Below, one piece after another: positions 22,844 through 62,655 of a stretch of DNA of 64,000 nucleotides (the first letter of the stretch is position 1; each line of letters starts with the position of its first letter). A program made the position numbers and the translations under genes. The stretch is taken from positions 3,948,479 to 4,012,478 of the forward strand of contig OZ246960.1 of assembly GCA_965232235.1 (NCBI GenBank). The letters run 5' to 3'. Below the pieces are notes generated by a model, which was not told where the DNA came from, did no database searches, and saw only the letters and a list, made by a program, of their open reading frames with translations. This DNA comes from Candidatus Poribacteria bacterium (GTDB lineage Bacteria > Poribacteria > WGA-4E > JAJDTR01).

Positions 22844-25800
22844 ATGAATAACGAGACAATATTCACCGTCAAAAAGAAACATCTTGACCTACTAGACGAG
22901 GACACAGCAGTTGAGTTCTTTAGCAAACTGCTATGGGCTGAAGCGAACAGACTTGGTCCAGGAACCTGCAAGATTAATGTGCCGAGCCAAACCAAAATCC
23001 CTGATGGTGGAATTGATGCTACCGTTGACGCAGACCGACTTGCGAAACAAAGCGATATAATTGCCCCTGGCAAAAACGGTTACCAAATCCGATCAGGAAC
23101 TGCCTTTAAGCCGTGGCGGGATGGGGATATTCGGAAAGAACTCTTTAAGAAAGGAAGTCCTAAAACCCCTGAAAAAGAGAACTTAAGAGAAAGCATCAAG
23201 GATTGCCTTGATGAATGTGGTATTTACGTTTTAGTTTGCACTGGAATTGATTGTCTTGTTCCTCCCAACCGGAAAAAGGCCTCCAAACTCATTAAAGATT
23301 ACCTAGAAACGTGTGGTTATCCAAAGGCGAAGGTTGAGGTGTGGAGCCAAAACACCCTCCGTTGCTTTCTTGAGTCGTTCCCATCACTGTCTTTGTGGGT
23401 CAATGGACGCAATAGCGCAAAGTTTCAAACGCATGACAGTTGGTCGCGAGATGCGAGCATGCAACGTCCATTTGTTCATGGAGAATCTCAGGATGAATTG
23501 ATTGAAAATCTTCGGAGTGGTTTACGGCGCGCCGATAATAAGGATCCTATGTTAGTGTCCGGGCGGCCCGGCATCGGCAAGACCAGGCTTGTTTTGGAAG
23601 CAACAAACGCCACAGACCTAGCGCCTCTAGTGATTTACGCCCCAGCTGATCAATTCCTTCATGACAAATTTCTAATGGATGAACTTTGCAACGATGAAAA
23701 CGACTTTTCCGCGATTGTGGTAATTGATGATTGCAATCTCCATAGCCGATCAGAAATTTTGGATAAACTGAAGTATCGTGGTCCGAAAATCAAACTCATT
23801 ACCATCTATAATAACCACGAAGAAGCTGCAGGAGATATTACGCCCTATGTTCCCCAACCTCTAGGCGAGGACCAGATTCGCAGCATCATCGAGCAACATA
23901 CGAACGTCTCCGACAACGAAGACAGACGATGGGTTGAGCTCTGCAGTGGATCGCCGAGAGTCGCTCATGTCGTTGGTTGGAATCGGGCAAATTATCCAAG
24001 GGATGTACTCGCCTCTCTGAGCACCGTCAATATCTGGGAGGGCTATATTGTCTCAGTTGACGATCCAAGTCAGGAAAGAACGGAACAACGCAGACGAATA
24101 CTCCGATACATGGCACTGTTTAAGCAATTCGGTTTTGAAGACCCTGTTGGCGAAGAAGCCAAAGCCGTTTCCAAAAAGATTGAGGAGGCGGATCCCCAGA
24201 TTACGTGGACGATATTTCAGGAAATCGTTGATAACCTTAAGAAACGTAAAATCCTTGACGGAGATTATACACTTGCCATCACGCCGAAAGCCCTTCAGAT
24301 TAAGTTATGGATAGAATGGTGGGATATCTATGGCAGGACGTTTGACCTAGATGAATTTATTCAAAACTTTCCCTGCGATTCAAAATTGGTCGAGTGGTTC
24401 TATGAGATGTTTTCGTACGCATCTGAGTCTGGAGTGGCATTAAGCGCTGTGAAGGATCTTCTTGGCCCAGACGGTCCATTCCAACAAAGAAAATATCTGC
24501 AGACAAACCTCGGAAGTAGCTTTTTCTTGGCACTGACTGAAGCAGCCCCGGAATCCGCTCTAGAATGTCTTAAGAAAACGGTTGAGACATGGGATGGAGA
24601 AACCCTATCGCAATTCGTTGGATGTACTTGCGTAGTATTGGCACTTGAAAAGATTGCTGTGTGGAACCGCCTGTTTACAGATGCTGCGGAATTACTCCTT
24701 GCGCTTGGTGACAGTAGTTTTGCTGGACTCTTTTCGCCGGCACCTGGAGGCGTGGCACCGACGGAAGCGTCTCCGAAAGAACGGTTTCCTATCTTGGAGG
24801 GCGCGTTTGAATCGGAATCAAAAGCAAAACGTGTTTTGGCATTGAAGGCGAGTGATGTGGCTTTAGAATCAAGCTATTTCTCGCGATTTGGGAATCCAGA
24901 ATATCAAGGCTTACGTCAGAAACCCAAACTATGGACGCCTAAAACGGAGGGCGAATTTCGGGAGGCACTTCGCCGAGTATGGAAATTACTAGATAGACAG
25001 CTAGCGCGTTTGCCCAACGATGAATGTAAAAAAGGCGCGGCAATTCTGCTAAAACGTGCGCGCGAGATGGTGAGAATCCCAAATCTGGCCAAGATGGTTG
25101 TGGAAACGGTCGCTACAATTGCAAAAGAAGAATATGTAAATAAAAAACACGTTATTGGGACCATTAACCAAATCCTACACTACGATGGCGACAATATACC
25201 TGCGGAAACCCGAGGACTATGGGAGCAACTCATGGGCCAATTGGTTACACCTGACTTTCATTCCATGATGAGACGGTACGTTGGTATGGAATTGCTTGAA
25301 GACCTCCAACTTGGCGACGACCAAAATTACGTAGATCAGGCGCAACTTCAGATTGAAAAGCTCGCCCAACAAGCCATTAGCAATCCATCACGCTTGCAAT
25401 CGGAACTGGCTTGGCTTGTCACAAGCGAGGCCAAGAAGGGATACAATTTCGGGTATGAACTTGGGAAACGAGACAACGGCTTTTCCTTGCTGCTGACGCT
25501 TCTTAAAGCCCAACGAAACGCGGATGACAATGCAAGTACAGCTTTTCTGGGCGGTTATTTCCGTGCGCTCTTTGAATCGGACGCTGACCGGCGAGAAGCA
25601 CAACTTGAAGCGATGATTGATGATACCAAACTAAAACCGCTGATTCCAGCATTGACTTCCCGGTCGGGCCTTACAGATGAGGCGGGATTGCGTCTTCTCC
25701 GCCTCGCAAGAGATGGTACCATGGGTATAAATGACTTCAAAACCTTCACCTATGGCAAAGCCGTTGACGGTTTGTCTAGTGAAATCGTCACGACGTGGGT

Positions 25801-26644
25801 TGAATTTCTACTAGGCGTCAACGACCAAGCAGGTGCATCAATTGCACTGAACCTTTACCACTGCTACTATATCTTCCAGAAACCAGAACGGGATTTACCA
25901 CTTGATGTGACATTCCGATTGCTTCGTCATCAATCCCTGTTTGAAGGATTAGACGGGTATCAATTCGATTCTACCATGACCGCTTATTATTGGACAGAGA
26001 TAGCCAAAGTCTTCCCGCACCTTGATTCCGAAAAGGAATTGGAACTTTCGGAGTTAATGCTTTCCCATTTTGGCGAGGACGGTTCAATTGTTGGCCCTTA
26101 CTCGCGAACATGCTCGGTGCTTGATGAATTGACGCAACAGTATCCCGCTGAGGTCTGGAAGCAGGTTAGTGGACTCTTACAGAGCCAAGGGCATTCTTCA
26201 AGGACCATTGCTCTAGAAAAATGGCTCGGAGAAGGAGCCTCCTGGGGACGAGAAGAATCTAAACCTGCCCTGCTACGAATCCCGTACAAAATAATCTGGG
26301 AGTGGATTGACGAGGATATAGAAAAACGTGCGTGGTATTTCGCTTATAGGCTGGTTCCTATAACCCATTCATCGGAGGAATGGATGATTTCTATGGTAAG
26401 ATCGTTCCTCATCCGCTACGGCAGTCGCAAGGAGGTAAGAAGCGGTCTTATGAGTAACTATTTGTCTGGAGTATCGTTTGGCCCTGCCAGCTCGCACTTA
26501 CAAGCAAAAAAAGAGAAGCTGCTTCAGATAAGGGACATTGAAGATGAAGATGGCGATAATGTCAGGCGTTGGGTTGATGAATTTGTGGCGGAACTGGAAG
26601 GGGGAATTGGACGGGAAACGATGCGTGAGGAGAGAGAACATTAA
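22844..26644 (+). CDS. STAND-type P-loop NTPase with an N-terminal Mrr-like (PD-(D/E)xK restriction-endonuclease fold) domain and a long C-terminal helical sensor region; Avs-like antiviral protein candidate
   Basis: The N-terminus matches the Mrr-cat pattern (AVEFFSKLLWAEANRLG...IPDGGIDATVD...NGYQIRSG...GIYVLVCTGID). Walker A is GRPGIGKT. Walker B is AIVVIDDCNL. About 900 aa of predicted alpha-helical repeats follow. It has a lower GC than its neighbours. Confidence 0.75.
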   Translation: MNNETIFTVKKKHLDLLDEDTAVEFFSKLLWAEANRLGPGTCKINVPSQTKIPDGGIDATVDADRLAKQSDIIAPGKNGYQIRSGTAFKPWRDGDIRKELFKKGSPKTPEKENLRESIKDCLDECGIYVLVCTGIDCLVPPNRKKASKLIKDYLETCGYPKAKVEVWSQNTLRCFLESFPSLSLWVNGRNSAKFQTHDSWSRDASMQRPFVHGESQDELIENLRSGLRRADNKDPMLVSGRPGIGKTRLVLEATNATDLAPLVIYAPADQFLHDKFLMDELCNDENDFSAIVVIDDCNLHSRSEILDKLKYRGPKIKLITIYNNHEEAAGDITPYVPQPLGEDQIRSIIEQHTNVSDNEDRRWVELCSGSPRVAHVVGWNRANYPRDVLASLSTVNIWEGYIVSVDDPSQERTEQRRRILRYMALFKQFGFEDPVGEEAKAVSKKIEEADPQITWTIFQEIVDNLKKRKILDGDYTLAITPKALQIKLWIEWWDIYGRTFDLDEFIQNFPCDSKLVEWFYEMFSYASESGVALSAVKDLLGPDGPFQQRKYLQTNLGSSFFLALTEAAPESALECLKKTVETWDGETLSQFVGCTCVVLALEKIAVWNRLFTDAAELLLALGDSSFAGLFSPAPGGVAPTEASPKERFPILEGAFESESKAKRVLALKASDVALESSYFSRFGNPEYQGLRQKPKLWTPKTEGEFREALRRVWKLLDRQLARLPNDECKKGAAILLKRAREMVRIPNLAKMVVETVATIAKEEYVNKKHVIGTINQILHYDGDNIPAETRGLWEQLMGQLVTPDFHSMMRRYVGMELLEDLQLGDDQNYVDQAQLQIEKLAQQAISNPSRLQSELAWLVTSEAKKGYNFGYELGKRDNGFSLLLTLLKAQRNADDNASTAFLGGYFRALFESDADRREAQLEAMIDDTKLKPLIPALTSRSGLTDEAGLRLLRLARDGTMGINDFKTFTYGKAVDGLSSEIVTTWVEFLLGVNDQAGASIALNLYHCYYIFQKPERDLPLDVTFRLLRHQSLFEGLDGYQFDSTMTAYYWTEIAKVFPHLDSEKELELSELMLSHFGEDGSIVGPYSRTCSVLDELTQQYPAEVWKQVSGLLQSQGHSSRTIALEKWLGEGASWGREESKPALLRIPYKIIWEWIDEDIEKRAWYFAYRLVPITHSSEEWMISMVRSFLIRYGSRKEVRSGLMSNYLSGVSFGPASSHLQAKKEKLLQIRDIEDEDGDNVRRWVDEFVAELEGGIGRETMREEREH

Positions 26645-26670: not shown

Positions 26671-27210
26671 ATGGCAAACTATCAAGAACTCGCAAATCTC
26701 GTATGGAACGTAGCCGACGATGTCCTCCAAGGCTTATTCAAACCCCACGAATACGGCGACATCACCCTCCCGTTCCTCGTCCTGCGCCGTCTGGACTGCA
26801 TCCTAACGGAAGACGACCGAAAAGACAAAGCCATTGACGTCCACAACCGCTTCAAAGATGGCGTCCCCGAAGAATCCCTGCCCCGGATTATTCTGAACGA
26901 GACGAAATCCAGTTTCTACAACACCTCCCGCTACGACCTCCCCCGACTAAAAGCCGACCCCAACAACATCCGCCTCAACTTCACCAACTACCTCAACGGC
27001 TTCACCAAGGATGTGCGGGACATCATCGAAAACTTCAACCTCGATCAGTTCATTGACCGGCTTTACAACGCAACCTATGATTCTTTCCAACCGTGGACGG
27101 ATGGCTCAGCGCACCATAACGTCCGCAAGATTTCCATAGCGTTTCTGATGCCCGATTCTGGAATGCTCTGCAACGAAGTTACTTCCTCGGAGACAGACTG
27201 TGCTTTATGA
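26671..27210 (+). CDS. DNA N6-adenine methyltransferase N-terminal (HsdM_N-like) domain fragment; probable gene remnant
   Basis: AAGGAAAA RBS 26 nt after the upstream stop. The first ~135 aa match the methylase N-terminal domain (LVWNVADDVLQGLFKPHEYGDITLPFLVLRRLDCIL...FYNTSRYDLPRL...NFTNYLNGFTKDVRDIIENF). No catalytic motifs follow. The last ~45 codons run antisense to the 3' end of the convergent methyltransferase gene. Confidence 0.5.
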   Translation: MANYQELANLVWNVADDVLQGLFKPHEYGDITLPFLVLRRLDCILTEDDRKDKAIDVHNRFKDGVPEESLPRIILNETKSSFYNTSRYDLPRLKADPNNIRLNFTNYLNGFTKDVRDIIENFNLDQFIDRLYNATYDSFQPWTDGSAHHNVRKISIAFLMPDSGMLCNEVTSSETDCAL

Positions 27211-30065
27211 ATCTCAAACATGTACGACACCACAGCGTCAATCTCCTGTCGCACAGGATCTATGGCTGCATCCTTGGCCGGACGCAATGATTGGTTAGAC
27301 AGAACGTCAAATCGCGCCGCTGCCATTTCGAGGATCGCGTCCGACAGTCTGTCTAGGCGCGGGCACGGGATCTTCCTCAAAGCCCCAATCTGCGTCGTCG
27401 ACCGCCCATTTTGCGTCCGTTGACCCTGTGTCCAGTGTACGATCATTCCAAGCGTCGAGTTCCACCACAGCGCAAACGCCTTCCGCACTCGGACATCCTC
27501 ATGTATGAGAGCAGTCCATGCCCGTCCGCCAAGCGCGGGGTGCGCGGTCGACGCAGACAATAGCGCCTGGCTCGTCCACCTAAGATTGCGGGCGTAAAAC
27601 AATGTGCTGACATACAATCTCATCTGTTCGCCCTGCTCCGTCGACCCCACCCCGGGTGGTGCCAATCCCTTGTGGGTCGGTAATACTCGCAGCGAGCGCT
27701 GCGTTTTGGAGGATGCTTCCCACAAAGCTCGATCTACTCCAATCGCATCGGTCTCGCTCGTTACCGGATGAAATTCAAATGCACCTATCGGCTCATTCCC
27801 CTTCGGATGTCCGATTAAGTGGTGCGTTGGTCCCACATGAAAGATGTCTTCAATGGTCCCCATCTCCAATCCCAAAGGAATTGGTGTCCCCGCAATATGA
27901 TCGAGCGTCCCCCGTGTAAGCGCATCGGCGGCCAGTGCCAACCCTCCATGGATTACACCAACCATGTTCCACGGCAATCCTTCACCATTCGCATACATCA
28001 CTGTGATGCACCCAATTTCGCTGTTACCGACGGTAATTGGGTGTGTCATGTTGGTCGCGGTGCACTGCGCCTTCGCTTGCTCAATTGCCCTCGTCACTTC
28101 TCTCGCCTCGCCGTTCCGAGTGCACGGTTCATAAAGTGTCACACAATGCAGCAAAGCACGATCCTTCTTTTGAGGATGCTTGCGCCGCGTTGCAACTAGC
28201 AACATCTCCTCCATCCCAGTGTCTGCCGAAAAACTTGCCTGTTTGAGCGAAGCCCCGCTTGCCGTCGCAATCAGAACAATATCCGTGAATTCCGCTTCGA
28301 CCATTCGCCGCGTTTCCGTCCATGTATCGGCGAAAGCGCATGTGAGGGGTAATACAAACCCAATTCGCCCTGTTCCTGCCTTGACCTTATGCTTGGCTAG
28401 CACAAGAAATGACGCAGCCATCCCAGCTCGCAGCCGCGCGGGTTTGTCGTTCACTAGGACGCCCCATCGTTTCTGACAGCGCTTCCGATCCTCTTCAGTC
28501 AAACCCTTCAAATCAAAAGCGCTCTGGCCGCCGCGTGTCCTAGAATACGGCGGATTCATAAGAATCCAGTCCACGCTGCCGTGACGTACTTCCACGCTTG
28601 ACGCCTCGTGTTGGACCCCACCAGCCCTACCGAGACTTTGCCCGAACAAATCTTCTGTAAACGTAGCCTCTAGATATTCGAGCGCACCAGTCAGTGCTGT
28701 CCTACCACCAACCTTTACCCAGCCAATCTGCGTTTCACCGTAACTTTCCCCTTTCCCTATATTAGCGAGACTTGAGGAAGTCAGGTGCGCTGCAATCGGA
28801 CTAATGTCAGTGCCCCTTAACCCGTGTTCCATCGCGCCGCAATGTAGTTCCGCGACAGAGTCCTCCGTTCCTCCGGCCCATTCATGCAGAGTTTGTACGC
28901 GCAAATAGCCTTCCCTTAAAAGCGTACCCGTACCGCAGGCCAAATCCGCGATAATCGACCGGCGCAGCAAGTCTGACCGGCCCCACTCCGACTCTAGTTT
29001 GTCCGATTGCCGAATCGTTAGACTCGCAAGCAACTCCGCTGTCGCCGGCTGCGTATAGAACGCCGCGCTCTCCTTCCGATCTGAAGCAAGCTTAGGAAAT
29101 AACTCCGCCCCCACGTTTATGTGTTGCCCCAAATCCGCATCCTCAATCATACCCACCGCTTCAATCAACCGTTTGAGAGCTTCGGTCGTTCCGGCACGAT
29201 GAAAGTCACCGCAAACTGCTAGCGCATTGACAGCTGGCTCAAAAATCGACCGCCAGTTGATTTCGATTATTCGCCGCCACGTTTCGACTTGCTCGAATGG
29301 ATTAGGAGTGACACCGGATACCGTCCGAACCGGTGGAATGTCATTAACTCCCTGAACTTGCAGCCGTTGCTGGATCAATAGCGCGTTTAACCAGAGTACC
29401 ATAGTAGTCTGTAATCCCTCCAATGGAGAGTTTTGCCCCACTTGTCCCGCAATTTTCCGTTGCGCGTTCTCGTGGAGAGTCGATTTCAGCGTTTCCGCAG
29501 CTTGTTTCACTAACTGAGCTACCTCTGCTGCGCGGGCCTCCACCACTTCATTAGGCATCGCGGCGGCGGCGATCAGTCGCCTAGCATCATGAACCGTGCC
29601 TTGAATGAACCCTTTAGCTGGCCACCGACGTGTAGTTCCGTCACTCAACCCGCTTTGGTGCAGTGCATACGCAATCTGCTGCAATCCGTCCTTTAACTTC
29701 GCGTATACGGAATCTGCAGAAAGTTCTCGATATTCCTCAGGAATGTGGACCGCCAGAACCGCCAGCAGCGGTCTGCCTCCTCGTGTCGTTTTCTGACCTA
29801 GCCTGTCCTGAGCATCCCTATCGGCATCTGCCGCATTGAATGATGCCTCAATTGCTGCGGCTGGCATCTGCGGGTCATCGATCAAGATATCCGCTCGACC
29901 GGAACTCAGAGTACCCGTCCGTTCTGCCAGAATGTATTCATCAGAATGGCCGAGCCAGCGAGCCTCTGTTTCCGCCAACACCTTGCCAAACTCAATGTTG
30001 AACGTGTGTTCGTGGAGTTTCCCTTTCGATTGCTTAACTAAGTACAGTTGTTCCGTTTCTGGCAT
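27075..30065 (-). CDS. MmeI/PglX-family (Type IIG/IIL-like) N6-adenine DNA methyltransferase, possibly a methyltransferase-nuclease fusion
   Basis: SAM motif I reads ADLACGTGTLL. Motif IV reads WILMNPPYSRTRGG. The N-terminus resembles the MmeI-family nuclease module (EFGKVL...GRADILIDD...AIEAS). A ~490-aa C-terminal target-recognition-type region follows. GC is higher than in the neighbours. Confidence 0.8.
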   Translation of the reverse strand: MPETEQLYLVKQSKGKLHEHTFNIEFGKVLAETEARWLGHSDEYILAERTGTLSSGRADILIDDPQMPAAAIEASFNAADADRDAQDRLGQKTTRGGRPLLAVLAVHIPEEYRELSADSVYAKLKDGLQQIAYALHQSGLSDGTTRRWPAKGFIQGTVHDARRLIAAAAMPNEVVEARAAEVAQLVKQAAETLKSTLHENAQRKIAGQVGQNSPLEGLQTTMVLWLNALLIQQRLQVQGVNDIPPVRTVSGVTPNPFEQVETWRRIIEINWRSIFEPAVNALAVCGDFHRAGTTEALKRLIEAVGMIEDADLGQHINVGAELFPKLASDRKESAAFYTQPATAELLASLTIRQSDKLESEWGRSDLLRRSIIADLACGTGTLLREGYLRVQTLHEWAGGTEDSVAELHCGAMEHGLRGTDISPIAAHLTSSSLANIGKGESYGETQIGWVKVGGRTALTGALEYLEATFTEDLFGQSLGRAGGVQHEASSVEVRHGSVDWILMNPPYSRTRGGQSAFDLKGLTEEDRKRCQKRWGVLVNDKPARLRAGMAASFLVLAKHKVKAGTGRIGFVLPLTCAFADTWTETRRMVEAEFTDIVLIATASGASLKQASFSADTGMEEMLLVATRRKHPQKKDRALLHCVTLYEPCTRNGEAREVTRAIEQAKAQCTATNMTHPITVGNSEIGCITVMYANGEGLPWNMVGVIHGGLALAADALTRGTLDHIAGTPIPLGLEMGTIEDIFHVGPTHHLIGHPKGNEPIGAFEFHPVTSETDAIGVDRALWEASSKTQRSLRVLPTHKGLAPPGVGSTEQGEQMRLYVSTLFYARNLRWTSQALLSASTAHPALGGRAWTALIHEDVRVRKAFALWWNSTLGMIVHWTQGQRTQNGRSTTQIGALRKIPCPRLDRLSDAILEMAAARFDVLSNQSLRPAKDAAIDPVRQEIDAVVSYMFEIHKAQSVSEEVTSLQSIPESGIRNAMEILRTLWCAEPSVHGWKES

Positions 30066-30350
30066 TGACTTGTCTCTCTCAAGTAGAATTCAGTAAAGCG
30101 TGAATTAAGCCGAGGTGTGCGGCGAATTGATTCTGTAGGCCTGTTCCGTTCGTTTACCACGGTCGCATCGCACGTATCCCAACCCAGATATACCACCATT
30201 CACCGCTCGGTTATAAGCTCTCTCCATCATTTCATGAATCGTCATCACTGTCAAGTATTAGCGCTACAGTGTCGAACTGTGCAAATCTAGAAAGTACCCG
30301 CTTTTAGACCACCTTCGCTTCCTTAAGGTATAATTGCAAACCGGCGTTAC

Positions 30351-30762: not shown

Positions 30763-31818
30763 ATGAGGAAAGTCGTAATTAAGATGTTAGCACTGTTCGT
30801 GCTATTGAGTGGTGTGGCGCAAGCCAGTGAAATCATCGCCTTTACGAGCACGCGCGATGGGAATTCGGAAATCTATGTCATGGATGCTGATGGAGCCAGT
30901 CCGATTAACTTGACAAACAGTCATGCTGATGATTGGGAGCCAGCTTGGTCACCTGCCGGCAAACAGATTGCCTTCCATACCAGTCGGGATGGGAATGCTG
31001 AAATCTACGTCATGGGTGCTGATGGAGACAATCCAATTAACTTGACAAACAATCCTGCGGATGACTGGGAGTTAGCGTGGTCACCCGACGGCGAACAGAT
31101 TGCCTTCCACACCAGTCGGGATGGGAACGCTGAAATCTACGTCATGGATGCTGATGGAGACAATCCAATTAACTTGACAAACAGTCCCGCGGATGAATGG
31201 AAACTAGCTTGGTCACCCGATGGCGCACAGATTGCCTTTAACACCAGTCGGGATGGGAACGCTGAAATCTATCTCATGGATGCTGATGGAAACAATCCAA
31301 TTAACTTGACAAACAATCCTGCGGATGACTGGGAGCTAGCGTGGTCACCCGACGGCAAACAGATTGCCTTCCACACCAGCCGAGATGGGAACGCTGAAAT
31401 CTACGTCATGGGTTCCGATGGAAGAAATCCAATCAACCTGACAAACAATCCTGCGGATGACTGGGAGCTAGCGTGGTCACCTGACGGCAAACAGATTGCC
31501 TTCCATACCAGCCGGGATGGGAACGCTGAAATCTACGTCATGGGTGCTGATGGAGATAATCCAATTAACGTATCTAACAGTCCTGCGGATGAATGGAAGC
31601 TGGCCTGGTCACCCCAGAGCGCACAGATTGCCTTTAGCTCTAGTCGGGATGGGAACGCTGAAATCTACGTCATGGGTGCTGATGGAGACAATCCAATAAA
31701 CTTGACAAACAATCCTGGTTCTGACGAGTCACCGGCTTGGTTCGATTCTCGTGTTGCAACGGCGGTGGAACCTGCACGAAAGTTGAGCACTACATGGGGA
31801 AGGATAAAAACGAAGTAA
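30763..31818 (+). CDS. secreted PD40 beta-propeller protein composed of seven near-identical 44-aa repeats
   Basis: GGAGG lies 7 nt upstream of the ATG. The signal peptide is MRKVVIKMLALFVLLSGVAQA. The unit ADDWELAWSPDGKQIAFHTSRDGNAEIYVMGADGDNPINLTNNP occurs 7 times. The tail is VATAVEPARKLSTTWGRIKTK. Confidence 0.85.
   Translation: MRKVVIKMLALFVLLSGVAQASEIIAFTSTRDGNSEIYVMDADGASPINLTNSHADDWEPAWSPAGKQIAFHTSRDGNAEIYVMGADGDNPINLTNNPADDWELAWSPDGEQIAFHTSRDGNAEIYVMDADGDNPINLTNSPADEWKLAWSPDGAQIAFNTSRDGNAEIYLMDADGNNPINLTNNPADDWELAWSPDGKQIAFHTSRDGNAEIYVMGSDGRNPINLTNNPADDWELAWSPDGKQIAFHTSRDGNAEIYVMGADGDNPINVSNSPADEWKLAWSPQSAQIAFSSSRDGNAEIYVMGADGDNPINLTNNPGSDESPAWFDSRVATAVEPARKLSTTWGRIKTK
30826..31753 (+). 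repeat. 132-bp tandem repeat array (about 7 copies, >90% identical) inside the PD40 gene
   Basis: Successive units are nearly identical at nucleotide level (gatgggaa(c/t)gctgaaatctacgtcatgg(a/g)tgctgatggaga(c/t)aatccaattaacttgacaaaca(a/g)tcctgcggatga(c/a)tggga...). Confidence 0.8.
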
Positions 31819-47441: not shown

Positions 47442-49094
47442 TTGCTGCTAATCAGCCCCAAAATCTTAAAGTGGACCATTGACGATCTAGAAAAGTCCAT
47501 CACCCCTCGAAAAATCTTGCTTTATGCTCTTCTAATCTTCGGAGTTGCACTGGTTGGCGGAGTCATACGATTTGCGCAACGGAAGACCATCCAGAGTGTT
47601 GCCAGAAGAACCGAATGCTACCTGCGCAGCGATTTCTTTTCACATTTGCAGACACTCTCGGCAAGCTACTACAACCGCGTTCAAACGGGGGATTTGATGG
47701 CGCGGGCAACGAGCGATATGAATGCTGTTCGAATGATGTTGAGTTCATCAATCTCATTTACGCTTGACGCCATTGTGTTTTTTGGTTTCGCTCTGATTAT
47801 CATGTTGGATATCGATGTCACCCTAACATTATATGCACTACTCCCTTATCCGGTACTTGCGGTATTGATCCGAGAACTGGGCACGCGAATTCATAAAAGT
47901 CATGAGAAAATCCAAGAAGGATTCTCGGATATGAATACGGCGGTGCAGGAGAACTTAACAGGCGTGCGCGTGGTAAAAGCATACACGCTTGAGGACGCTC
48001 AGAAAACGCGATTCCAACAATTCAACGAGACCTTTGTAAGCCGGAATCGGAAGCAAATACGACTGATCGCGTTCTTTTTTCCGGTATTTAGTTTTCTGCC
48101 CGGGATTGGCGGTGTTGTCCTTCTATGGTTAGGCGGAATGCGTGTCGCTGACGGTCGGATTACGCTCGGTGATTTTGTATCCTTTGGCGCTTATTTGACA
48201 ATGCTGATACGTCCGATGATTATGCTTGGGTTTGTGGTGAACTCGTTCGAACGAGGCGCCGCCTCCATGAAACGCATTGCACGGATTCTTGATGAAAAAC
48301 CGGACATAGTCGATAACGAAAGTGTCAACCGGGGCATCCAGACAATTCAAGGGGCAATCGAGTTGCGACACCTTAGTTTCACCTATCAAGACGGAACGCA
48401 CGTTCTAAAGGACATTAACCTCAAGATTGAACCCGGTATGACGGTTGCTATCGTTGGACCAACCGGTTGCGGCAAGACAACGCTTGTAAACTTAATTCCA
48501 CGGATTTATAAAACCGACCGTGGAACAGTCTTCGTTGATGGAGTAGACATTCAAGATATTCCCCTTAACGTGCTTCGCTCACACATCGGAGTAGTGTCAC
48601 AGGAACCGTACCTTTTCGCCGATTTTTTGCGTAGCAACATAGCGTTTGGTAATGAAGACGCGGGCGAGGTTAATATCAGGGAGGCCGCCCACGCCGCCGA
48701 TCTGTTAGAACAAATAGAGGAGTTTCCGGATGGATTGGAGACGTTCTTGGGCGAGCGCGGCATCACAATTTCGGGTGGACAGAAACAGCGCACAGCGTTG
48801 GCTCGCGCTATACTGATTAACCCGCGCATCCTAATTCTGGATGATTCTTTTGCAAGCGTTGACACGCACACTGAGGACACTATCTTGGCACGTCTCGGGG
48901 GAATCATGGCCGATCGGACGACACTCATCATTTCGCATCGGATTTCGACGGTCAAAGCAGCGGATCTCATCATCGTTTTGAATGACGGTCAAATTGTGGA
49001 GCGTGGAACTCATGAAGAATTGATAGCGCATAACGGCATTTACGCGGGAATTCATGAGAGACAGTTGCTGCAAGAGGAACTGGAAGGACTTTGA
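47442..49094 (+). CDS. ABC exporter, fused permease/ATPase (MsbA-like half-transporter)
   Basis: Transmembrane domain followed by NBD (GPTGCGKTT, ISGGQKQR, LILDDSFAS). The annotated start is a TTG. The in-frame upstream extension (RLKKYIARHKFAVIISLISVLITNA) has no ATG or GTG, so the true N-terminus is uncertain. Confidence 0.8.
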   Translation: MLLISPKILKWTIDDLEKSITPRKILLYALLIFGVALVGGVIRFAQRKTIQSVARRTECYLRSDFFSHLQTLSASYYNRVQTGDLMARATSDMNAVRMMLSSSISFTLDAIVFFGFALIIMLDIDVTLTLYALLPYPVLAVLIRELGTRIHKSHEKIQEGFSDMNTAVQENLTGVRVVKAYTLEDAQKTRFQQFNETFVSRNRKQIRLIAFFFPVFSFLPGIGGVVLLWLGGMRVADGRITLGDFVSFGAYLTMLIRPMIMLGFVVNSFERGAASMKRIARILDEKPDIVDNESVNRGIQTIQGAIELRHLSFTYQDGTHVLKDINLKIEPGMTVAIVGPTGCGKTTLVNLIPRIYKTDRGTVFVDGVDIQDIPLNVLRSHIGVVSQEPYLFADFLRSNIAFGNEDAGEVNIREAAHAADLLEQIEEFPDGLETFLGERGITISGGQKQRTALARAILINPRILILDDSFASVDTHTEDTILARLGGIMADRTTLIISHRISTVKAADLIIVLNDGQIVERGTHEELIAHNGIYAGIHERQLLQEELEGL

Positions 49095-49157
49095 GGAGCC
49101 CTGGACCTTCGGCTCACTTACGATTGATAATAACAGTATTCATACGGAGGATTAACC

Positions 49158-50960
49158 GTGTTTGGCATGGGCGGTCAGCTACACGAATATAGCGAAGAGG
49201 AACAGGACCTTGGCAAGATCTATGATAGCGTGCTGATGAGGCGGTTGGTTGCCTATATGAAGCCGTATCGTGTCGAGGTTGTGTTGCTAGTGTTTCTCGT
49301 GGTCGGTGTAATGCTCGCCCAGTTGGCGATACCGTATCTTCTAAAAATTGCGATTGATCGGCACATCCAGCCGCGAGATCTGGACGGTTTGCAGTTTATC
49401 GCCCTTTTCATGATTACGGCCATGGTTGCGGAACTGGTGTTCAGGTATGTGAATGAATATAGGATGCAGATGCTTGGACAACGAATCATGCATGACATTC
49501 GGGCGCAAATCTTCTCCCATCTGCAACGGCTTGATGTAAATTACTTCGATCGAAACCCCGTTGGGCGATTGATGACCCGCGTGATGGGCGATGTTCAGGT
49601 TCTAAACGAACTTTTCACATCAGGCGTAATCACGATTTTTGCGAATTTTTTGACTGTAATTGGCATCATGGTAATGATGCTGATGTTGAATTGGAAACTC
49701 GCACTAGTGACCTTGACGGTTCTGCCTATCATTTTCACCGCAACGACAATTTATCAAATCTACTCCCGCCGAGCGTTTCGAGATCAACGCAAACATCTCG
49801 CCCGGATTAACGCCTTCCTGAACGAACACATCCTCGGGATGACAACAGTGCAACTCTTCGCGCAGGAACGGCGTAGTTACCTCAAATTCGATGAGCGGAA
49901 CCAGGCATATTTGCGCGCAAACCTAAAGACTGCTGTCTATTTTTCAATGTTTTTCCCGCTCATTGAAGTGGTAGGATCACTCGCAACTGCGATAATCGTG
50001 TGGTACGGCGGGGGCCAGATTCTTCAAAACACCCTTTCTTTCGGGGTACTCGTTGCCTTCATTCAATACGCGCAACGTTTCTTCTGGCCCATCCGTGAAT
50101 TGAGCGAACAGTACACGATTTTTCAAACCGCTATGGCATCTTCCGAGCGAATTTTTGAACTGTTGGATACGGAACCGACTATCGTTGATTCCGCTACTCC
50201 CAGGAGAATCAACCAATTCACCGGTCAAATCGAACTCCAAAATGTCCGATTCGCTTATCAAAGGGATGATTTTGTGCTGCATGATGTTTCCTTCAAGGTG
50301 GAGCCGGGCGAAAAGGTCGCCATTGTTGGGCAGACGGGTTCAGGCAAAACGACAATCATTAATCTCCTATGCCGCTTTTATGAACCCAACGAGGGCACAA
50401 TCATGATTGATGGAGCGGACATCAAGGAAATGCGTCTGAAAGACTTGCGGCGTGCCATTAGTATCGTGCAGCAAAATATCTTCCTGTTTTCCGACAGCGT
50501 TGAGGAAAACATTCGGCTTGGGAACAGGGACATTACCCGTGAACATGTGATTGCAGCGGCAACAGAGGTACACCTCGACAAATTCGTGCAGAGAATGGCA
50601 GACGGCTATGACACAAGAATTCAGGAAGGCGGAAGCGGCTTGTCAGTCGGGCAGAAGCAGTTGGTCGCTTTTGCGCGTGCGTTGGCTTCCAATCCTGATA
50701 TTCTGATTCTCGACGAAGCGACATCAAGCGTTGATACCGAAACGGAACTCCTAATCCAAGATGCGTTAAGCCGCCTTATGAGAAATCGCACGTCGATTGT
50801 GATTGCCCATCGACTTTCGACCATTCAGAACGCCGACAAAATTATTGTAATGCATAAGGGAAGGATTCGTGAAATGGGAACGCATAATGAGCTTCTACAA
50901 AAGCGAGGTGTCTATTATCGGCTTTATCAACTTCAGTATAAGGGACAAGAAGTCGGTTAG
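49158..50960 (+). CDS. ABC exporter, fused permease/ATPase (partner half-transporter)
   Basis: GTG start with GGAGG 7 nt upstream. NBD motifs are GQTGSGKTT, LSVGQKQL, and LILDEATS. Confidence 0.85.
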   Translation: MFGMGGQLHEYSEEEQDLGKIYDSVLMRRLVAYMKPYRVEVVLLVFLVVGVMLAQLAIPYLLKIAIDRHIQPRDLDGLQFIALFMITAMVAELVFRYVNEYRMQMLGQRIMHDIRAQIFSHLQRLDVNYFDRNPVGRLMTRVMGDVQVLNELFTSGVITIFANFLTVIGIMVMMLMLNWKLALVTLTVLPIIFTATTIYQIYSRRAFRDQRKHLARINAFLNEHILGMTTVQLFAQERRSYLKFDERNQAYLRANLKTAVYFSMFFPLIEVVGSLATAIIVWYGGGQILQNTLSFGVLVAFIQYAQRFFWPIRELSEQYTIFQTAMASSERIFELLDTEPTIVDSATPRRINQFTGQIELQNVRFAYQRDDFVLHDVSFKVEPGEKVAIVGQTGSGKTTIINLLCRFYEPNEGTIMIDGADIKEMRLKDLRRAISIVQQNIFLFSDSVEENIRLGNRDITREHVIAAATEVHLDKFVQRMADGYDTRIQEGGSGLSVGQKQLVAFARALASNPDILILDEATSSVDTETELLIQDALSRLMRNRTSIVIAHRLSTIQNADKIIVMHKGRIREMGTHNELLQKRGVYYRLYQLQYKGQEVG

Positions 50961-56780: not shown

Positions 56781-58442
56781 TTACGCTAACCGCCATTGCA
56801 ATTGAGTTTTTGGAGGTGCAATAAGCGAAGCATTCGCTAGAAGATCCGGTTTTGAAAAGGCCTCATTTGGTACTCCATCGAATATCAGTTCGCCTTGACG
56901 TAGAAACAACACTCGCTTCGCGTATTGTAGAGTAAGTTGGGCGTCATGAGTACAAAAAATCAGCGTTTTATTTTGCCTTTCGACAGTATCGCAAAGTACT
57001 CCCATCAACTGTCCGAGATGACTAAAATCCTGTCCCGCAGTAGGTTCGTCAAGCAGGAGAATGTTCGGAAGAAGCGAGTAGGCTGCGGCGGTTGCCGTCC
57101 GTTGTCGTTGTCCCCGCGAGAGGGAGTAGGGCGCTTCATTACCTATATTGTCCAAATCGAATGCTGACATGACTTCTTTGGTTCGATGCTGTATTTCACA
57201 ACGAGACAGCTTCAGGTTTTTAGGGCCGAAAGCGACTTCATCGTTTACTGTTTCCGCTTGCAGCAGGAGATCGGGATCCTGAAAGACAATTCCGATTTTT
57301 CCCGCCAGGTTGCGAAGTTTCAGGCGCTCTCTTCCTATGTCTGTAATGAGAATCCGTCCGAACGTGGGACGGAGTAGCCCCAGAATTGACAAAAGCAGCG
57401 TCGTTTTCCCCGATCCATTTGCACCCATAATAGCGGTAACTTCGCCCTCACCAATTTCAAATGAGACCTTGCTTAAAGCGGGAATCTCAGTGCGTGGATA
57501 TTGAAACGTGAGATTTTCGACGCTGGCAAGTAGATTCCGCGAATCTTGATGAGGCTGTTCGTGGCTAACCAAGTTTGAAAGGTTTGATGTCGGGGCAGAT
57601 ATGTTTGGAAATCTGTCGGCTTGTAGAAATAATTGCGCTGCTTGATCGACGGTAAGCGGGCGTTCAGGTAGTCCCAACTGCTCTGACAATTCAGCCAAAT
57701 CAGGAATCTCCACACCCAAGTTACGATAAGGTTTGAGGTCTGAAAAGGCTCGATTCACGGGCGAATCGAGGGCGATTTCAGCATGACTCATCAGCCAAAC
57801 CCGACTACACAATGGGGCAATTTCAGAGACACGATGGGCGGCGATTACAATCGTTATCCCATTCTGGCGGTTCAGTTGACCGAGGATTTCCAGAATATCG
57901 CACGTGCTTGTCGGGTCGAGATGGCTCGTTGGCTCATCTAGCAGGAGAACGCGTGGTTTCATCGCGCACAAGCAAGCGAGGGAAACCCGTTGCTTCTCAC
58001 CGCCGGAGAGTGTCGAAATCGCGCGCCCTCGAAATCCGGTTGACAATTTGACCAGTGTCAACGCGGCGTTGATTCGAACGTCAATCTGAAAGGGAGGAAT
58101 GCCAAGATTTTCTAAACCAAATGCTATTTCGTCTTCAACAACGGTGCAGAAAAACTGGTCATCGGGATTCTGAAATAGCAGACCTACGTGTTGACTGATT
58201 ACTGCTAGCGACTGGTCGGCAAGGATTTTGCCATCAATGGCGACATTGCCAGAAAGCACGCCGCCTGACGCGTGCGGGATCAAACCATTCAATGTTCGTA
58301 AGAGGGTGGATTTGCCACATCCGGTGGGGCCCGTCAAGAGAATGAACTCGCCACATTCAACTTCGGCGTTTACCCTCTTCAGACTTGGTTCACTACGACT
58401 TGGATAGGTAAAACTGACATCTCTTATTTCAATTTGGCTCAT
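56781..58442 (-). CDS. ECF-type transporter ATPase with duplicated ABC domains (EcfA1-EcfA2 fusion, CbiO-like)
   Basis: Two Walker A sites are present (GPTGCGKST and GANGSGKTT). Two signature/Walker B sets are present (LSGGEKQRV/LLLDEPTS and LSRGQRQRT/LLLDEPTA). Confidence 0.85.
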   Translation of the reverse strand: MSQIEIRDVSFTYPSRSEPSLKRVNAEVECGEFILLTGPTGCGKSTLLRTLNGLIPHASGGVLSGNVAIDGKILADQSLAVISQHVGLLFQNPDDQFFCTVVEDEIAFGLENLGIPPFQIDVRINAALTLVKLSTGFRGRAISTLSGGEKQRVSLACLCAMKPRVLLLDEPTSHLDPTSTCDILEILGQLNRQNGITIVIAAHRVSEIAPLCSRVWLMSHAEIALDSPVNRAFSDLKPYRNLGVEIPDLAELSEQLGLPERPLTVDQAAQLFLQADRFPNISAPTSNLSNLVSHEQPHQDSRNLLASVENLTFQYPRTEIPALSKVSFEIGEGEVTAIMGANGSGKTTLLLSILGLLRPTFGRILITDIGRERLKLRNLAGKIGIVFQDPDLLLQAETVNDEVAFGPKNLKLSRCEIQHRTKEVMSAFDLDNIGNEAPYSLSRGQRQRTATAAAYSLLPNILLLDEPTAGQDFSHLGQLMGVLCDTVERQNKTLIFCTHDAQLTLQYAKRVLFLRQGELIFDGVPNEAFSKPDLLANASLIAPPKTQLQWRLA

Positions 58443-62564: not shown

Positions 62565-62655
62565 ATCTTTCTCCAATTAGGTCAAAACCACTAATTCAGT
62601 TACTATTCAACGGACGCAATAACTCACAATCAATCCCTGTTAATAAAGTCCCAAC

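What the first reader, a model, noticed from the sequence alone, without database searches (positions are those of the whole stretch)
27075..30065. MmeI/PglX-family methyltransferase whose N-terminal nuclease motif looks degenerate
The methyltransferase motifs are canonical (DLACGTG, NPPY). The N-terminal module aligns with the MmeI D...ExK endonuclease motif region (GRADILIDD...AIEAS), but the Lys position is Ser. The protein could be a single-chain Type IIL restriction-modification enzyme with a variant active site. It could be an orphan methylase derived from one. It could be the PglX-like component of an incomplete BREX-like system, but no pglZ/brxC genes are in the window. GC is distinctly higher than in the adjacent STAND gene, so the two were probably acquired separately.
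Basis: partly seen in the sequence, partly recalled or inferred. Interest (0 to 1): 0.55.

Follow-up and report, generated by a model that had tools for sequence, protein, structure and literature searches.

The report
Solitary nuclease-methylase gene with Lys-to-Ser site
This is a stand-alone gene for a large DNA adenine methyltransferase fused to a restriction-nuclease-like domain, from an undescribed family found mostly in sponge-symbiont genomes, and its missing catalytic lysine is a conserved family trait, not decay.

Summary
The ORF (27075-30065, minus strand, 996 aa) and all quoted motifs are real. The protein does not match the curated MmeI or PglX models and is not part of a BREX system. 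It has no significant Pfam or NCBIfam hit, and no neighbouring gene is conserved across 76 related loci.

An AlphaFold model (pLDDT 84) resembles single-chain Type IIG/IIL enzymes and PglX: BpuSI 1e-17, PglX 9e-14, DrdV 8e-12.

A profile-profile alignment (probability 100%, 896 columns) ties it to a large sister family of ~960-aa "N-6 DNA methylases". That family carries a canonical RPD...E-G-K motif in 120 of 120 members. Ser75 aligns exactly with that lysine, so the N-terminal nuclease-fold reading holds.

"Degenerate" does not hold. Ser75 is present in 166 of 168 family members. E19, D59 and E73 are at least 97% conserved. N-domain dN/dS (0.09-0.20) equals that of the methylase domain. Clades without the lysine (Ser, Glu or Ala at that position) carry a conserved Arg-Trp-Pro motif that the Lys clade lacks.

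The related genomes carry names of sponge-symbiont lineages from many phyla, including archaea. The gene often occurs in near-identical tandem copies that differ in one two-state C-terminal loop.

Most likely it is a self-contained Type IIG-like restriction-modification gene with a variant active site. A nuclease-dead orphan methylase remains a serious rival.

The parts
27075..30065 (-). Complete gene, 996 aa plus TAG stop. It is a single-chain protein with a nuclease-like domain, a helical region, an N6-adenine methyltransferase and a C-terminal region.
   Evidence: ORF list and translation. AF2 model has pLDDT 84.3 and pTM 0.86. Foldseek hits: BpuSI 1.2e-17, PglX 8.6e-14, DrdV 8e-12.
30226..30254 (-). 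Promoter-like site: TTGACA, 17-nt spacer, AATGAT preceded by TG. The TTGACA box is conserved upstream of all Poribacteria copies.
   Evidence: Consensus scan, 10 of 12 matches. CTTGACAG is conserved in the alignment of upstream regions.
29556..30065 (-). N-terminal domain, residues 1-170. The predicted core is helix, three strands, helix, strand, as in the PD-(D/E)xK fold.
   Evidence: Domain model pLDDT 90.8 with secondary structure. It aligns with the canonical PD...EGK domain of the sister family. dN/dS is 0.09-0.20. No significant Foldseek hit.
29841..29891 (-). Active-site-like motif: D59 at the start of strand 2, then E73-A-S75 in strand 3. Ser occupies the place of the catalytic Lys.
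   Evidence: D59 in 160/164, E73 in 165/167 and S75 in 166/168 family members. Ser75 aligns to Lys of EGK.
29625..29630 (-). R146-R147 of the RRWP motif. This is a candidate replacement basic residue.
   Evidence: R147 in 166/170. The (R/K)-[WFY]-P motif occurs in 133/140 Ser, 52/59 Glu and 10/12 Ala clade members, and in 0/119 Lys clade members. Spatial proximity was not checked.
29076..29555 (-). Helical region, residues 171-330, between the nuclease-like and methyltransferase domains.
   Evidence: AF2 secondary structure, helices 172-326.
28146..29075 (-). Gamma-class amino-methyltransferase domain, residues about 331-640. Motif I DLACGTGTLLR lies at 28914-28946 and motif IV NPPY at 28545-28556.
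   Evidence: D374, C377, G378, G380 and N504-Y507 are invariant in 171/171. N6_Mtase hits in 25/32 and Eco57I in 13/32 members. PADLOC REase_MTase_IIG in 27/32 and mad2 in 29/32.
27078..28145 (-). C-terminal region, residues 641-996. It is the presumed DNA-recognition part and is conserved along its whole length.
   Evidence: Entropy profile. Full-length structural alignments to BpuSI and PglX. hhalign to the sister family runs through residue 977.
27786..27821 (-). Two-state loop, residues 749-760 (GPTH-H-LIGHPKGNEP-I-GAFEF). The window copy is the His749/Ile760 type.
   Evidence: H749 with I/L760 in 88 sequences, D749 with R760 in 68, mixed in 3. This loop is the recurrent difference between 93-99% identical tandem copies in four arrays.

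Best explanation
The gene encodes a self-contained, single-polypeptide restriction-modification enzyme of the Type IIG kind. It belongs to a large family that no curated library describes.

Shown:
- The central domain is a gamma-class SAM-dependent N6-adenine methyltransferase with motif I DLACGTG and motif IV NPPY.
- The N-terminal 170 residues are homologous to a domain that carries a canonical PD...ExK nuclease motif in the sister family.
- The gene is solitary, has a promoter-like site of its own, and sits in unrelated contexts in related genomes.

Inferred:
- The C-terminal region reads a DNA sequence, and the methyltransferase marks the host's own sites with m6A.
- The N-domain still binds metal through E19, D59 and E73 (perhaps also D84) and cuts unmarked incoming DNA.
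- The role of the missing Lys75 is taken by another residue. Arg147 is the candidate, or Ser75 plus the clade-specific Asp80 and Asp82 in a BamHI-like all-acidic site.
- The two loop types (His/Ile and Asp/Arg) read different bases, and tandem copies of both types widen the range of protected and attacked sequences.
For: Structure: the full-length model (pLDDT 84) matches BpuSI (Type IIG) 1.2e-17, PglX 8.6e-14, DrdV (Type IIL) 8e-12, CamA, LlaBIII and M.BseCI.

Methyltransferase motifs are invariant in 171/171 sequences. Family-wide weak hits go to N6_Mtase, Eco57I and REase_MTase_IIG.

N-domain:
- hhalign of A1 against A5 gives probability 100%, E 9.6e-55, 896 columns, with rpDiLI...viE-SF aligned on RPDVLF...vIEGKF. 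The sister family has Lys in 120/120.
- The predicted secondary structure places D59 at the start of strand 2 and E73-x-S75 in strand 3.
- E19, D59, E73, S75, D84 and R/K88 are each at least 97% conserved.
- dN/dS is 0.09-0.20, as in the methylase domain.
- The Lys position is Glu (60), Ser (53) or Ala (10) among 148 representative clusters. Glu at this position has a precedent in BamHI, and a Lys moved to another element in Pa4535 (PMC3424549).
- The R-W-P motif occurs only in the clades without Lys.

Solitary, movable unit:
- No neighbour is conserved across 76 loci.
- DNA identity of 83-96% between Poribacteria copies stops about 27 nt before the start (about 190 nt in one copy) and 18-21 nt after the stop. 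An upstream TTGACA box is also conserved.
- The contexts differ.

Recognition loop: it has two states, and near-identical tandem copies differ there.
Against: - No PD-(D/E)xK nuclease with Ser at the Lys position is known to me to be active, and the Lys is normally essential.
- The isolated N-domain model has no significant structural match to any nuclease (best PDB E 0.75, best viral E 0.045).
- The C-terminal region is as conserved as the rest of the protein. Recognition domains of enzymes with different specificities usually vary more.
- Sister-family members lie next to ArdC on a conjugative plasmid and next to a second methylase in a block of small ORFs. Those settings are typical of orphan anti-restriction methylases (PMC11541004).
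- The Arg147 idea rests on one deep split between clades, not on independent events.
Confidence: 0.5

Rival explanations
1. Orphan DNA adenine methyltransferase. The N-domain has lost cleavage activity through the Lys-to-Ser change. It is kept for DNA binding, oligomerisation or control of methylation. The protein only methylates, either to shield the genome or a mobile element from other cells' restriction systems, or for epigenetic regulation.
For: The Lys position is Ser. No structural match to nucleases was found for the isolated domain. Distant relatives lie beside ArdC on plasmid pUSP4 and beside a C5 methylase in an Agrobacterium mobile-looking block. Orphan methylases are enriched in plasmid leading regions (PMC11541004). 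Near-identical tandem copies are easier to tolerate for a harmless methylase. Public records call the relatives 'N-6 DNA methylase' or 'hypothetical protein'.
Against: A dead nuclease would not be expected to keep E19, D59 and E73 at 97% or more across phyla, with dN/dS as low as the catalytic methylase domain. The plasmid and prophage relatives have an intact PD...EGK motif in 120/120, so that family is not obviously nuclease-dead. The clades without Lys gained a conserved Arg.
Confidence: 0.32
2. A true MmeI-family Type IIL enzyme, homologous along its length to MmeI, with a mutated active site.
For: The domain order is the same. DrdV (Type IIL) is among the structural matches at 8e-12.
Against: No Pfam family with MmeI in its name matched the protein (E up to 0.1) or any of 32 family members (E up to 1). 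Sequence and profile searches of all PDB chains found nothing. MmeI is not among the 50 best structural matches, and the best is BpuSI.
Confidence: 0.05
3. PglX-like methyltransferase of an incomplete or novel BREX-like (or MADS-like) multi-gene defence system.
For: PglX structures are the second-best structural match. There are weak PADLOC hits to mad2 (29/32 members) and PglX (3/32).
Against: No neighbouring gene family is shared by more than 6 of 76 loci. The window holds no pglZ, brxC or other mad genes, and its mad3 and mad8 hits are ABC transporters. The DNA shared between copies is essentially the gene alone.
Confidence: 0.03
4. Not a DNA enzyme: an NPPY-type methyltransferase acting on protein or RNA, as PrmC or RlmKL do.
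For: The window protein's only Pfam hits are non-significant: UPF0020/RlmKL-like at E 0.08 and an unrelated SH3 domain at E 0.21. Sister-family members give faint PrmC hits.
Against: All strong structural matches are DNA methyltransferases or restriction-modification enzymes with recognition domains. Most family members hit N6_Mtase or Eco57I. The protein is fused to a restriction-nuclease-fold domain.
Confidence: 0.04

Closest known systems
Type IIG restriction-modification enzymes such as BpuSI (PDB 3S1S) and the Eco57I group
   Same: One polypeptide with an N-terminal PD-(D/E)xK-fold domain, a helical spacer, a gamma-class N6-adenine methyltransferase (motif I, NPPY) and a C-terminal DNA-recognition part. 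BpuSI is the best structural match at 1.2e-17. It is a solitary gene.
   Different: There is no significant sequence-model match. The catalytic Lys is Ser. The C-terminal region is strongly conserved across the family. Activity is untested.
Type IIL enzymes MmeI and DrdV
   Same: The domain order is the same. DrdV is a structural match at 8e-12. In my recollection of the MmeI-family literature, specificity is set by a few co-varying residues, which resembles the two-state loop seen here.
   Different: No MmeI Pfam model matches. The motif spacing is D-x13-E-x-S. By my recollection MmeI has D-x9-E-x-K.
PglX/BrxX of BREX
   Same: The methyltransferase and recognition-domain fold match at 8.6e-14.
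   Different: PglX works with PglZ, BrxC and other partners, and as far as I know has no nuclease motif. Here there are no partners, and there is a conserved nuclease-type N-domain.
Unnamed sister family of ~960-aa 'N-6 DNA methylase' proteins (for example WP_108610813 on Aminobacter pUSP4 and WP_126447967 on Sulfuricystis pSTJ1)
   Same: Homologous over 896 columns (hhalign probability 100%) with the same architecture and length. These proteins are also solitary.
   Different: About 22% identity. They have canonical PD...E-G-K (120/120), NPPF instead of NPPY, no R-W-P motif and no THH/THD loop. They come from soil and plasmid or prophage settings, not from sponge-symbiont genomes.
BamHI-type and other variant PD-(D/E)xK active sites
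   Same: The Lys position is occupied by another residue while the acidic residues are kept. A catalytic residue relocated to another element is documented (PMC3424549).
   Different: Ser at this position is not among the variants listed there. The relocation to Arg147 is only inferred.

Membership tests
PD-(D/E)xK nuclease superfamily (N-domain) | Core of helix, three strands, helix, strand, with Asp at the start of strand 2 and (D/E)xK in strand 3 | tested here: met
   The predicted secondary structure is H19-32, E45-47, E60-62, E69-75, H78-88, E99-107. D59 precedes strand 2 and E73 lies in strand 3.
PD-(D/E)xK nuclease superfamily (N-domain) | Homology to a domain with the canonical motif | tested here: met
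   hhalign probability 100%. RPDiLI...viE-SF aligns on RPDVLF...vIEGKF. Sister family has Lys in 120/120.
PD-(D/E)xK nuclease superfamily (N-domain) | Catalytic Lys two residues after the Glu | tested here: not met
   Ser75 in 166/168 family members.
PD-(D/E)xK nuclease superfamily (N-domain) | Significant 3D match to a known nuclease | tested here: inconclusive
   The best PDB hit has E 0.75 (EndoMS at E 2.4). The best viral hits are MmcB at E 0.045 and PD-(D/E)XK nucleases at E 0.35-1.4. None is significant.
Type IIG restriction-modification enzymes | Nuclease and methyltransferase in one polypeptide with a recognition domain | tested here: met
   Domain order from the model. Full-length structural matches to BpuSI and DrdV.
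Type IIG restriction-modification enzymes | SAM-binding motif I and catalytic motif IV (NPPY/F) | tested here: met
   DLACGTG at 374-380 and NPPY at 504-507, invariant in 171/171.
Type IIG restriction-modification enzymes | DNA cleavage and sequence-specific m6A methylation | not testable with these tools
   This needs biochemistry or methylome data.
MmeI family (Type IIL) | Matches to the MmeI domain models (N-terminal, helical, methyltransferase, recognition and C-terminal domains) | tested here: not met
   No such Pfam family appeared at E up to 0.1 for the protein or at E up to 1 for 32 members. No PDB sequence hit.
BREX (PglX) | Genomic association with pglZ, brxC and other brx genes | tested here: not met
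   No neighbour is conserved across 76 loci. None is in the window.
MADS (mad2) | Embedded in a mad1-mad8 gene cluster and scoring above the MAD2 model cut-off | tested here: not met
   PADLOC mad2 gives only E 4e-4. The window protein has no NCBIfam MAD2 hit, and sister-family members score 22-35 bits against a 720-bit cut-off. The mad3 and mad8 hits in the window are ABC transporters.
Orphan anti-restriction methyltransferases of mobile elements | Location in a plasmid leading region or phage early region, with no nuclease activity | tested here: inconclusive
   Sister-family members lie next to ArdC or in a mobile-looking block. The window copy and its close relatives are chromosomal, with no phage hit. 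Nuclease activity is unknown.

The most novel reading that the evidence does not exclude
This is a previously undescribed superfamily of single-gene nuclease-methyltransferases. In it, the catalytic lysine of the PD-(D/E)xK site has been replaced clade by clade (Ser, Glu, Ala), and its role has moved to a conserved arginine (Arg147 of the RWP motif) on another strand, giving a new working active-site layout. The Ser clade has spread by horizontal transfer among sponge-holobiont bacteria and archaea. It is kept as near-identical tandem copies that differ only in a two-state recognition loop, which would be a built-in way of carrying two specificities.
Probability: 0.22. Interest if true: 0.62.

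Novelty: new variant of a known kind. Interest (0 to 1): 0.48.

Why it matters
Single-chain restriction-modification enzymes are a source of new DNA specificities and of rules for engineering recognition. If this family is active, it would add a new solution for the PD-(D/E)xK active site: no lysine in strand 3, and Ser with a distant Arg instead.

It is also a large pool of enzymes (hundreds of 50%-identity clusters) that today are annotated only as 'hypothetical protein' or 'N-6 DNA methylase'.

Relatives with 42-78% identity occur in Poribacteria, Acidobacteriota, Bacteroidota, Chloroflexota, Gemmatimonadota, Proteobacteria and Nitrosopumilaceae archaea of sponge holobionts. This makes the gene a marker of gene flow and of phage or plasmid pressure in that community.

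If the nuclease is dead, the finding is an ordinary orphan methylase with a fossil domain.

Tried and rejected
- **Direct family assignment.** Pfam, NCBIfam and PADLOC scans of the protein gave nothing significant. Scans of 32 members gave only generic methyltransferase and Type IIG hits.
- **PDB by sequence or profile.** Neither this family nor the sister family found anything.
- **Fold search of the isolated N-domain.** The PDB and viral structure libraries gave no significant hit. The nuclease-fold claim therefore rests on homology to the canonical-motif sister family and on predicted topology, not on a 3D match.
- **Partner genes.** All-against-all clustering of ORFs in 79 loci found no conserved neighbour. 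BREX, MADS and two-gene readings were dropped.
- **Arg/Lys88 on the second core helix as the relocated lysine.** Rejected, because the same Arg is conserved in the Lys-bearing sister family (DARNRV).
- **N-domain fused to other modules.** A profile search of 1.84 billion representatives returned only family-type hits among the 150 listed. The full-length ones are about 900-1060 aa, and the shorter ones are probably fragments.
- **Both loop types per genome.** Enrichment of genomes carrying both types was 9 of 14 multi-copy genomes, which is not clearly above chance.
- **Phage carriage.** No hit.
- **Simple insertion into hsdM.** Rejected, because the rest of hsdM is absent on the other side.
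Full report
**1. The observation**

The ORF at 27075..30065 on the minus strand is real: 996 aa with an ATG start. The translation contains every quoted motif:
- GRADILIDD at residues 56-64
- AIEAS at 71-75
- DLACGTG at 374-380
- NPPY at 504-507

GC content is 0.54-0.55 over the gene. It is 0.46-0.47 over the upstream 1266-aa STAND gene and about 0.49 for the window.

**2. What the libraries say**

The protein matches no curated family.
- Pfam gives only a non-significant UPF0020 hit (E 0.08).
- NCBIfam gives nothing.
- PADLOC gives weak hits to mad2 (4e-4) and REase_MTase_IIG (3e-3), both confined to the methyltransferase core.
- When 32 diverse relatives were scanned one by one, 25 hit N6_Mtase (best 1e-5) and 13 hit Eco57I. 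In PADLOC, 27 hit REase_MTase_IIG, 29 hit mad2 and 3 hit PglX. No family with MmeI in its name appeared.
- Sequence and profile searches of all PDB chains returned nothing.

'MmeI/PglX family' is therefore not supported as membership.

**3. Fold**

An AlphaFold2 model built on a 32-sequence alignment is confident: mean pLDDT 84.3, pTM 0.86. Its best matches among solved structures are:
- BpuSI, a Type IIG enzyme (1.2e-17)
- Salmonella and E. coli PglX/BrxX (about 1e-13)
- CamA (about 2e-12)
- DrdV, a Type IIL enzyme (8e-12)
- LlaBIII and M.BseCI

The overall build is that of the single-chain nuclease-methyltransferase and PglX group. It has an N-terminal domain (1-170), a helical region (171-330), a methyltransferase (about 331-640) and a C-terminal region (641-996).

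**4. The N-terminal domain**

Modelled alone, the domain is very confident (pLDDT 90.8). It still has no significant structural match:
- In the PDB the best E is 0.75, with EndoMS at E 2.4.
- In the viral library the best hits are an MmcB repair protein at 0.045 and several PD-(D/E)XK nucleases at 0.35-1.4.

The decisive evidence came from distant homologues found by tblastn on plasmids.
- Aminobacter pUSP4 (947 aa) reads ...RPDVLIQMLGLRVAIEGKF...
- Sulfuricystis pSTJ1 (971 aa) reads ...RPDVMFLLGGVRVVIEGKY...
- Both are canonical PD...ExK motifs.
- Nitrosospira pNRS527-2, at 30% identity over 94% of the query, reads RPDILI...VVIETEV. That is Glu-x-Glu, as in BamHI.

The Aminobacter protein heads a family of more than 2,500 90%-identity clusters of ~960-aa 'N-6 DNA methylases'. 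The Lys is present in 120 of the 120 best hits.

A profile-profile comparison of the two families gives probability 100%, E 9.6e-55 and 896 aligned columns. It places rpDiLI...viE-SF on RPDVLF...vIEGKF.

So the N-domain is a homologue of a canonical PD-(D/E)xK module, and Ser75 occupies the catalytic Lys position. The predicted secondary structure agrees. E19 opens helix 1, D59 sits at the start of strand 2, and E73-x-S75 lie in strand 3.

**5. Is it degenerate?**

No. The counts come from 171 distinct relatives:

| Residue | Conserved in |
|---|---|
| E19 | 160/162 |
| D59 | 160/164 |
| E73 | 165/167 |
| S75 | 166/168 |
| D84 | 166/168 |
| R/K88 | 166/168 |

- Pairwise dN/dS for the N-domain is 0.09-0.20. 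The methyltransferase domain (0.08-0.18) and the C-terminal region (0.11-0.22) give the same range.
- The N-domain profile finds 889 50%-identity clusters in 1.84 billion representatives. Among the 150 listed, the full-length ones are about 900-1060 aa.
- Among the best 148 clusters the Lys position is Glu in 60, Ser in 53, Ala in 10 and Lys in 1.
- Every clade without Lys carries an (R/K)-[WFY]-P motif about 70 residues downstream, which is R147-W148-P149 here. It occurs in 133/140 Ser, 52/59 Glu and 10/12 Ala members, and in 0/119 of the Lys family.
- The published survey of this superfamily records the canonical active site, relocated catalytic residues (Lys moved to another element in Pa4535) and variant motifs such as BamHI's (PMC3424549).

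I therefore read Ser75 as a fixed variant, possibly with Arg147 supplying the positive charge. This last step is inference. It reflects one deep split between clades, and I could not inspect model coordinates. Arg88 is not the substitute, because it is also conserved in the Lys family.

**6. Context**

Within the window:
- Upstream lies a PD-Lambda-4_A-like STAND protein (22844-26644).
- Next is a fragment of a Type I hsdM gene (26671-27072; HsdM_N 2e-17, MTase_I 4e-37). It stops exactly at the stop codon of the 996-aa gene.
- The rest of hsdM is not on the other side.
- No BREX or MADS gene is present. The PADLOC mad3 and mad8 hits 17-30 kb away are ABC transporters.

Across related genomes:
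- A scan of one genome per species returned 79 loci.
- Clustering of all flanking ORFs found no family shared by more than 6 of 76 loci. The gene works alone.
- Between Poribacteria copies, DNA identity of 83-96% begins about 27 nt before the start codon and ends 18-21 nt after the stop. In one copy it extends about 190 nt upstream.
- A TTGACA box upstream is conserved and scores as a promoter: 30254-30226, 10 of 12 matches, with TG before the second hexamer.
- The flanks are unrelated. Two relatives lie among NADH dehydrogenase genes.

**7. Distribution**

All 79 loci come from metagenome-assembled genomes. Their names are Poribacteria, Bryobacterales, Latescibacterota, Rhodothermales, Dehalococcoidia, Longimicrobiales, Alpha- and Gammaproteobacteria, Verrucomicrobiae, Candidatus Poriferihabitans, Porisulfidus, Amphirhobacter and Nitrosopumilaceae archaea.

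To my knowledge these are sponge or coral holobiont lineages. This is my own reading of the names, not a tool result. Published work reports that restriction-modification and other defence genes are enriched in sponge microbiomes (PMC11410982).

Poribacteria and Bryobacterales copies share 72-78% protein identity, and archaeal copies 42-45%. This points to horizontal spread. The exact window protein is in public collections on a 5.6-Mb contig without a name, and relatives are called 'hypothetical protein'.

**8. Tandem copies and a two-state loop**

- Five loci hold two or three head-to-tail copies that are 93-99% identical (L011, L017, L020, L036, L038).
- In four of these arrays the copies differ recurrently at the same positions: 749, 755 and 757-760.
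- Family-wide this loop has two states, in GPTH-[H/D]-LIGH-xxGxxx-[I/R]-GAFEF. His749 with Ile/Leu760 occurs in 88 sequences, Asp749 with Arg760 in 68, and mixed forms in 3.
- Those four arrays carry one or more copies of each state.
- Among 14 genomes with several copies, 9 hold both states, which is not clearly above chance.
- The window copy is the His/Ile type.
- A co-varying Asp-Arg versus His-Ile pair in a hairpin of the presumed recognition region is what a base-specifying contact would look like. This is inference.
- The C-terminal region is otherwise as conserved as the enzyme core. That is unusual for a recognition domain and is a point against the specificity reading.

**9. Mechanism and rivals**

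Most likely (0.5) this is a self-contained Type IIG-like restriction-modification enzyme. It would place m6A on its own sites and cut unmarked DNA through a variant metal-binding site.

The main rival (0.32) is an orphan methylase with a retained but non-cutting N-domain.
- For the rival: the Ser itself, the lack of any 3D nuclease match, and the settings of sister-family genes. One lies beside ArdC on pUSP4. Another lies beside a C5 methylase in an Agrobacterium block of small ORFs. Orphan methylases are known to be enriched in plasmid leading regions (PMC11541004).
- Against the rival: the strict conservation of the acidic residues, and the fact that those plasmid relatives keep an intact ExK motif.

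True MmeI membership (0.05), a BREX or MADS component (0.03) and a non-DNA methyltransferase (0.04) are poorly supported.

**10. Verdict**

The finding is best described as a new variant of a known kind. It has Type IIG-like architecture, belongs to an uncurated superfamily, and has a clade-fixed Lys-to-Ser active site.

Interest is moderate. The active-site variation, the apparent spread across sponge-symbiont phyla and the two-state tandem copies are worth a bench test. Nothing here requires a new kind of system.

Noticed in passing
window 26671-27072 (+): This is an N-terminal fragment of a Type I hsdM gene (HsdM_N 2e-17; PADLOC MTase_I 4e-37). It ends exactly at the stop codon of the 996-aa gene, and the rest of hsdM is missing. 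The 18-21 nt after the stop, which are the last hsdM codons in the window, are also shared with other Poribacteria copies that lie in unrelated contexts.
   Followed up: partly
window 22844-26644 (+): A 1266-aa STAND/AAA_16 protein matches PADLOC PD-Lambda-4_A (2.7e-21) over its first 700 residues. No PD-Lambda-4 partner gene was looked for.
   Followed up: no
L011, L017, L020, L036, L038 (for example L036:149-10988, L038:7998-16822): These loci hold head-to-tail arrays of two or three copies of the gene at 93-99% protein identity. Differences concentrate in the loop at residues 749-760. Four arrays carry both loop types (Asp/Arg and His/Ile).
   Followed up: yes
L006:7659-10991, L008:8001-11017, L073, L077, L080: These are copies of the gene split into two ORFs. 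They could be frameshifted or truncated pseudogenes, or sequencing errors in the assembled genomes.
   Followed up: no
window about 30095-30195 (minus strand, 5' leader) and the matching stretch of L006: The window and L006 have about 100 nt between the conserved TTGACA box and the start codon that the other four Poribacteria copies lack.
   Followed up: no
L083:7380-11204 (Aminobacter pUSP4); L085:8817-13365 (Agrobacterium pusense): Sister-family genes with an intact PD...EGK motif sit next to an ArdC anti-restriction gene on a mobilizable plasmid. In Agrobacterium the gene overlaps a PhdYeFM antitoxin-like ORF, and a C5 DNA methylase gene follows it.
   Followed up: partly
window 30763-31818 (+): A secreted-looking 351-aa protein is made of seven nearly identical PD40 (WD40-like) repeat units.
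   Followed up: no
window 12685-14631 (+): A 648-aa protein carries TGT and DUF5591 domains. That is the architecture of archaeosine-type tRNA-guanine transglycosylases, here in a bacterial (Poribacteria) genome.
   Followed up: no
window 47442-50960 (+) and 56781-58442 (-): PADLOC reports mad3 and mad8 hits (down to 2e-53). Pfam shows these proteins are ABC transporters (ABC_membrane plus ABC_tran), so the defence-system hits are false positives.
   Followed up: yes
window 58452-60443 (-) and 60591-62576 (-): Two adjacent paralogous proteins each combine B12-binding, radical SAM and DUF4070 domains.
   Followed up: no
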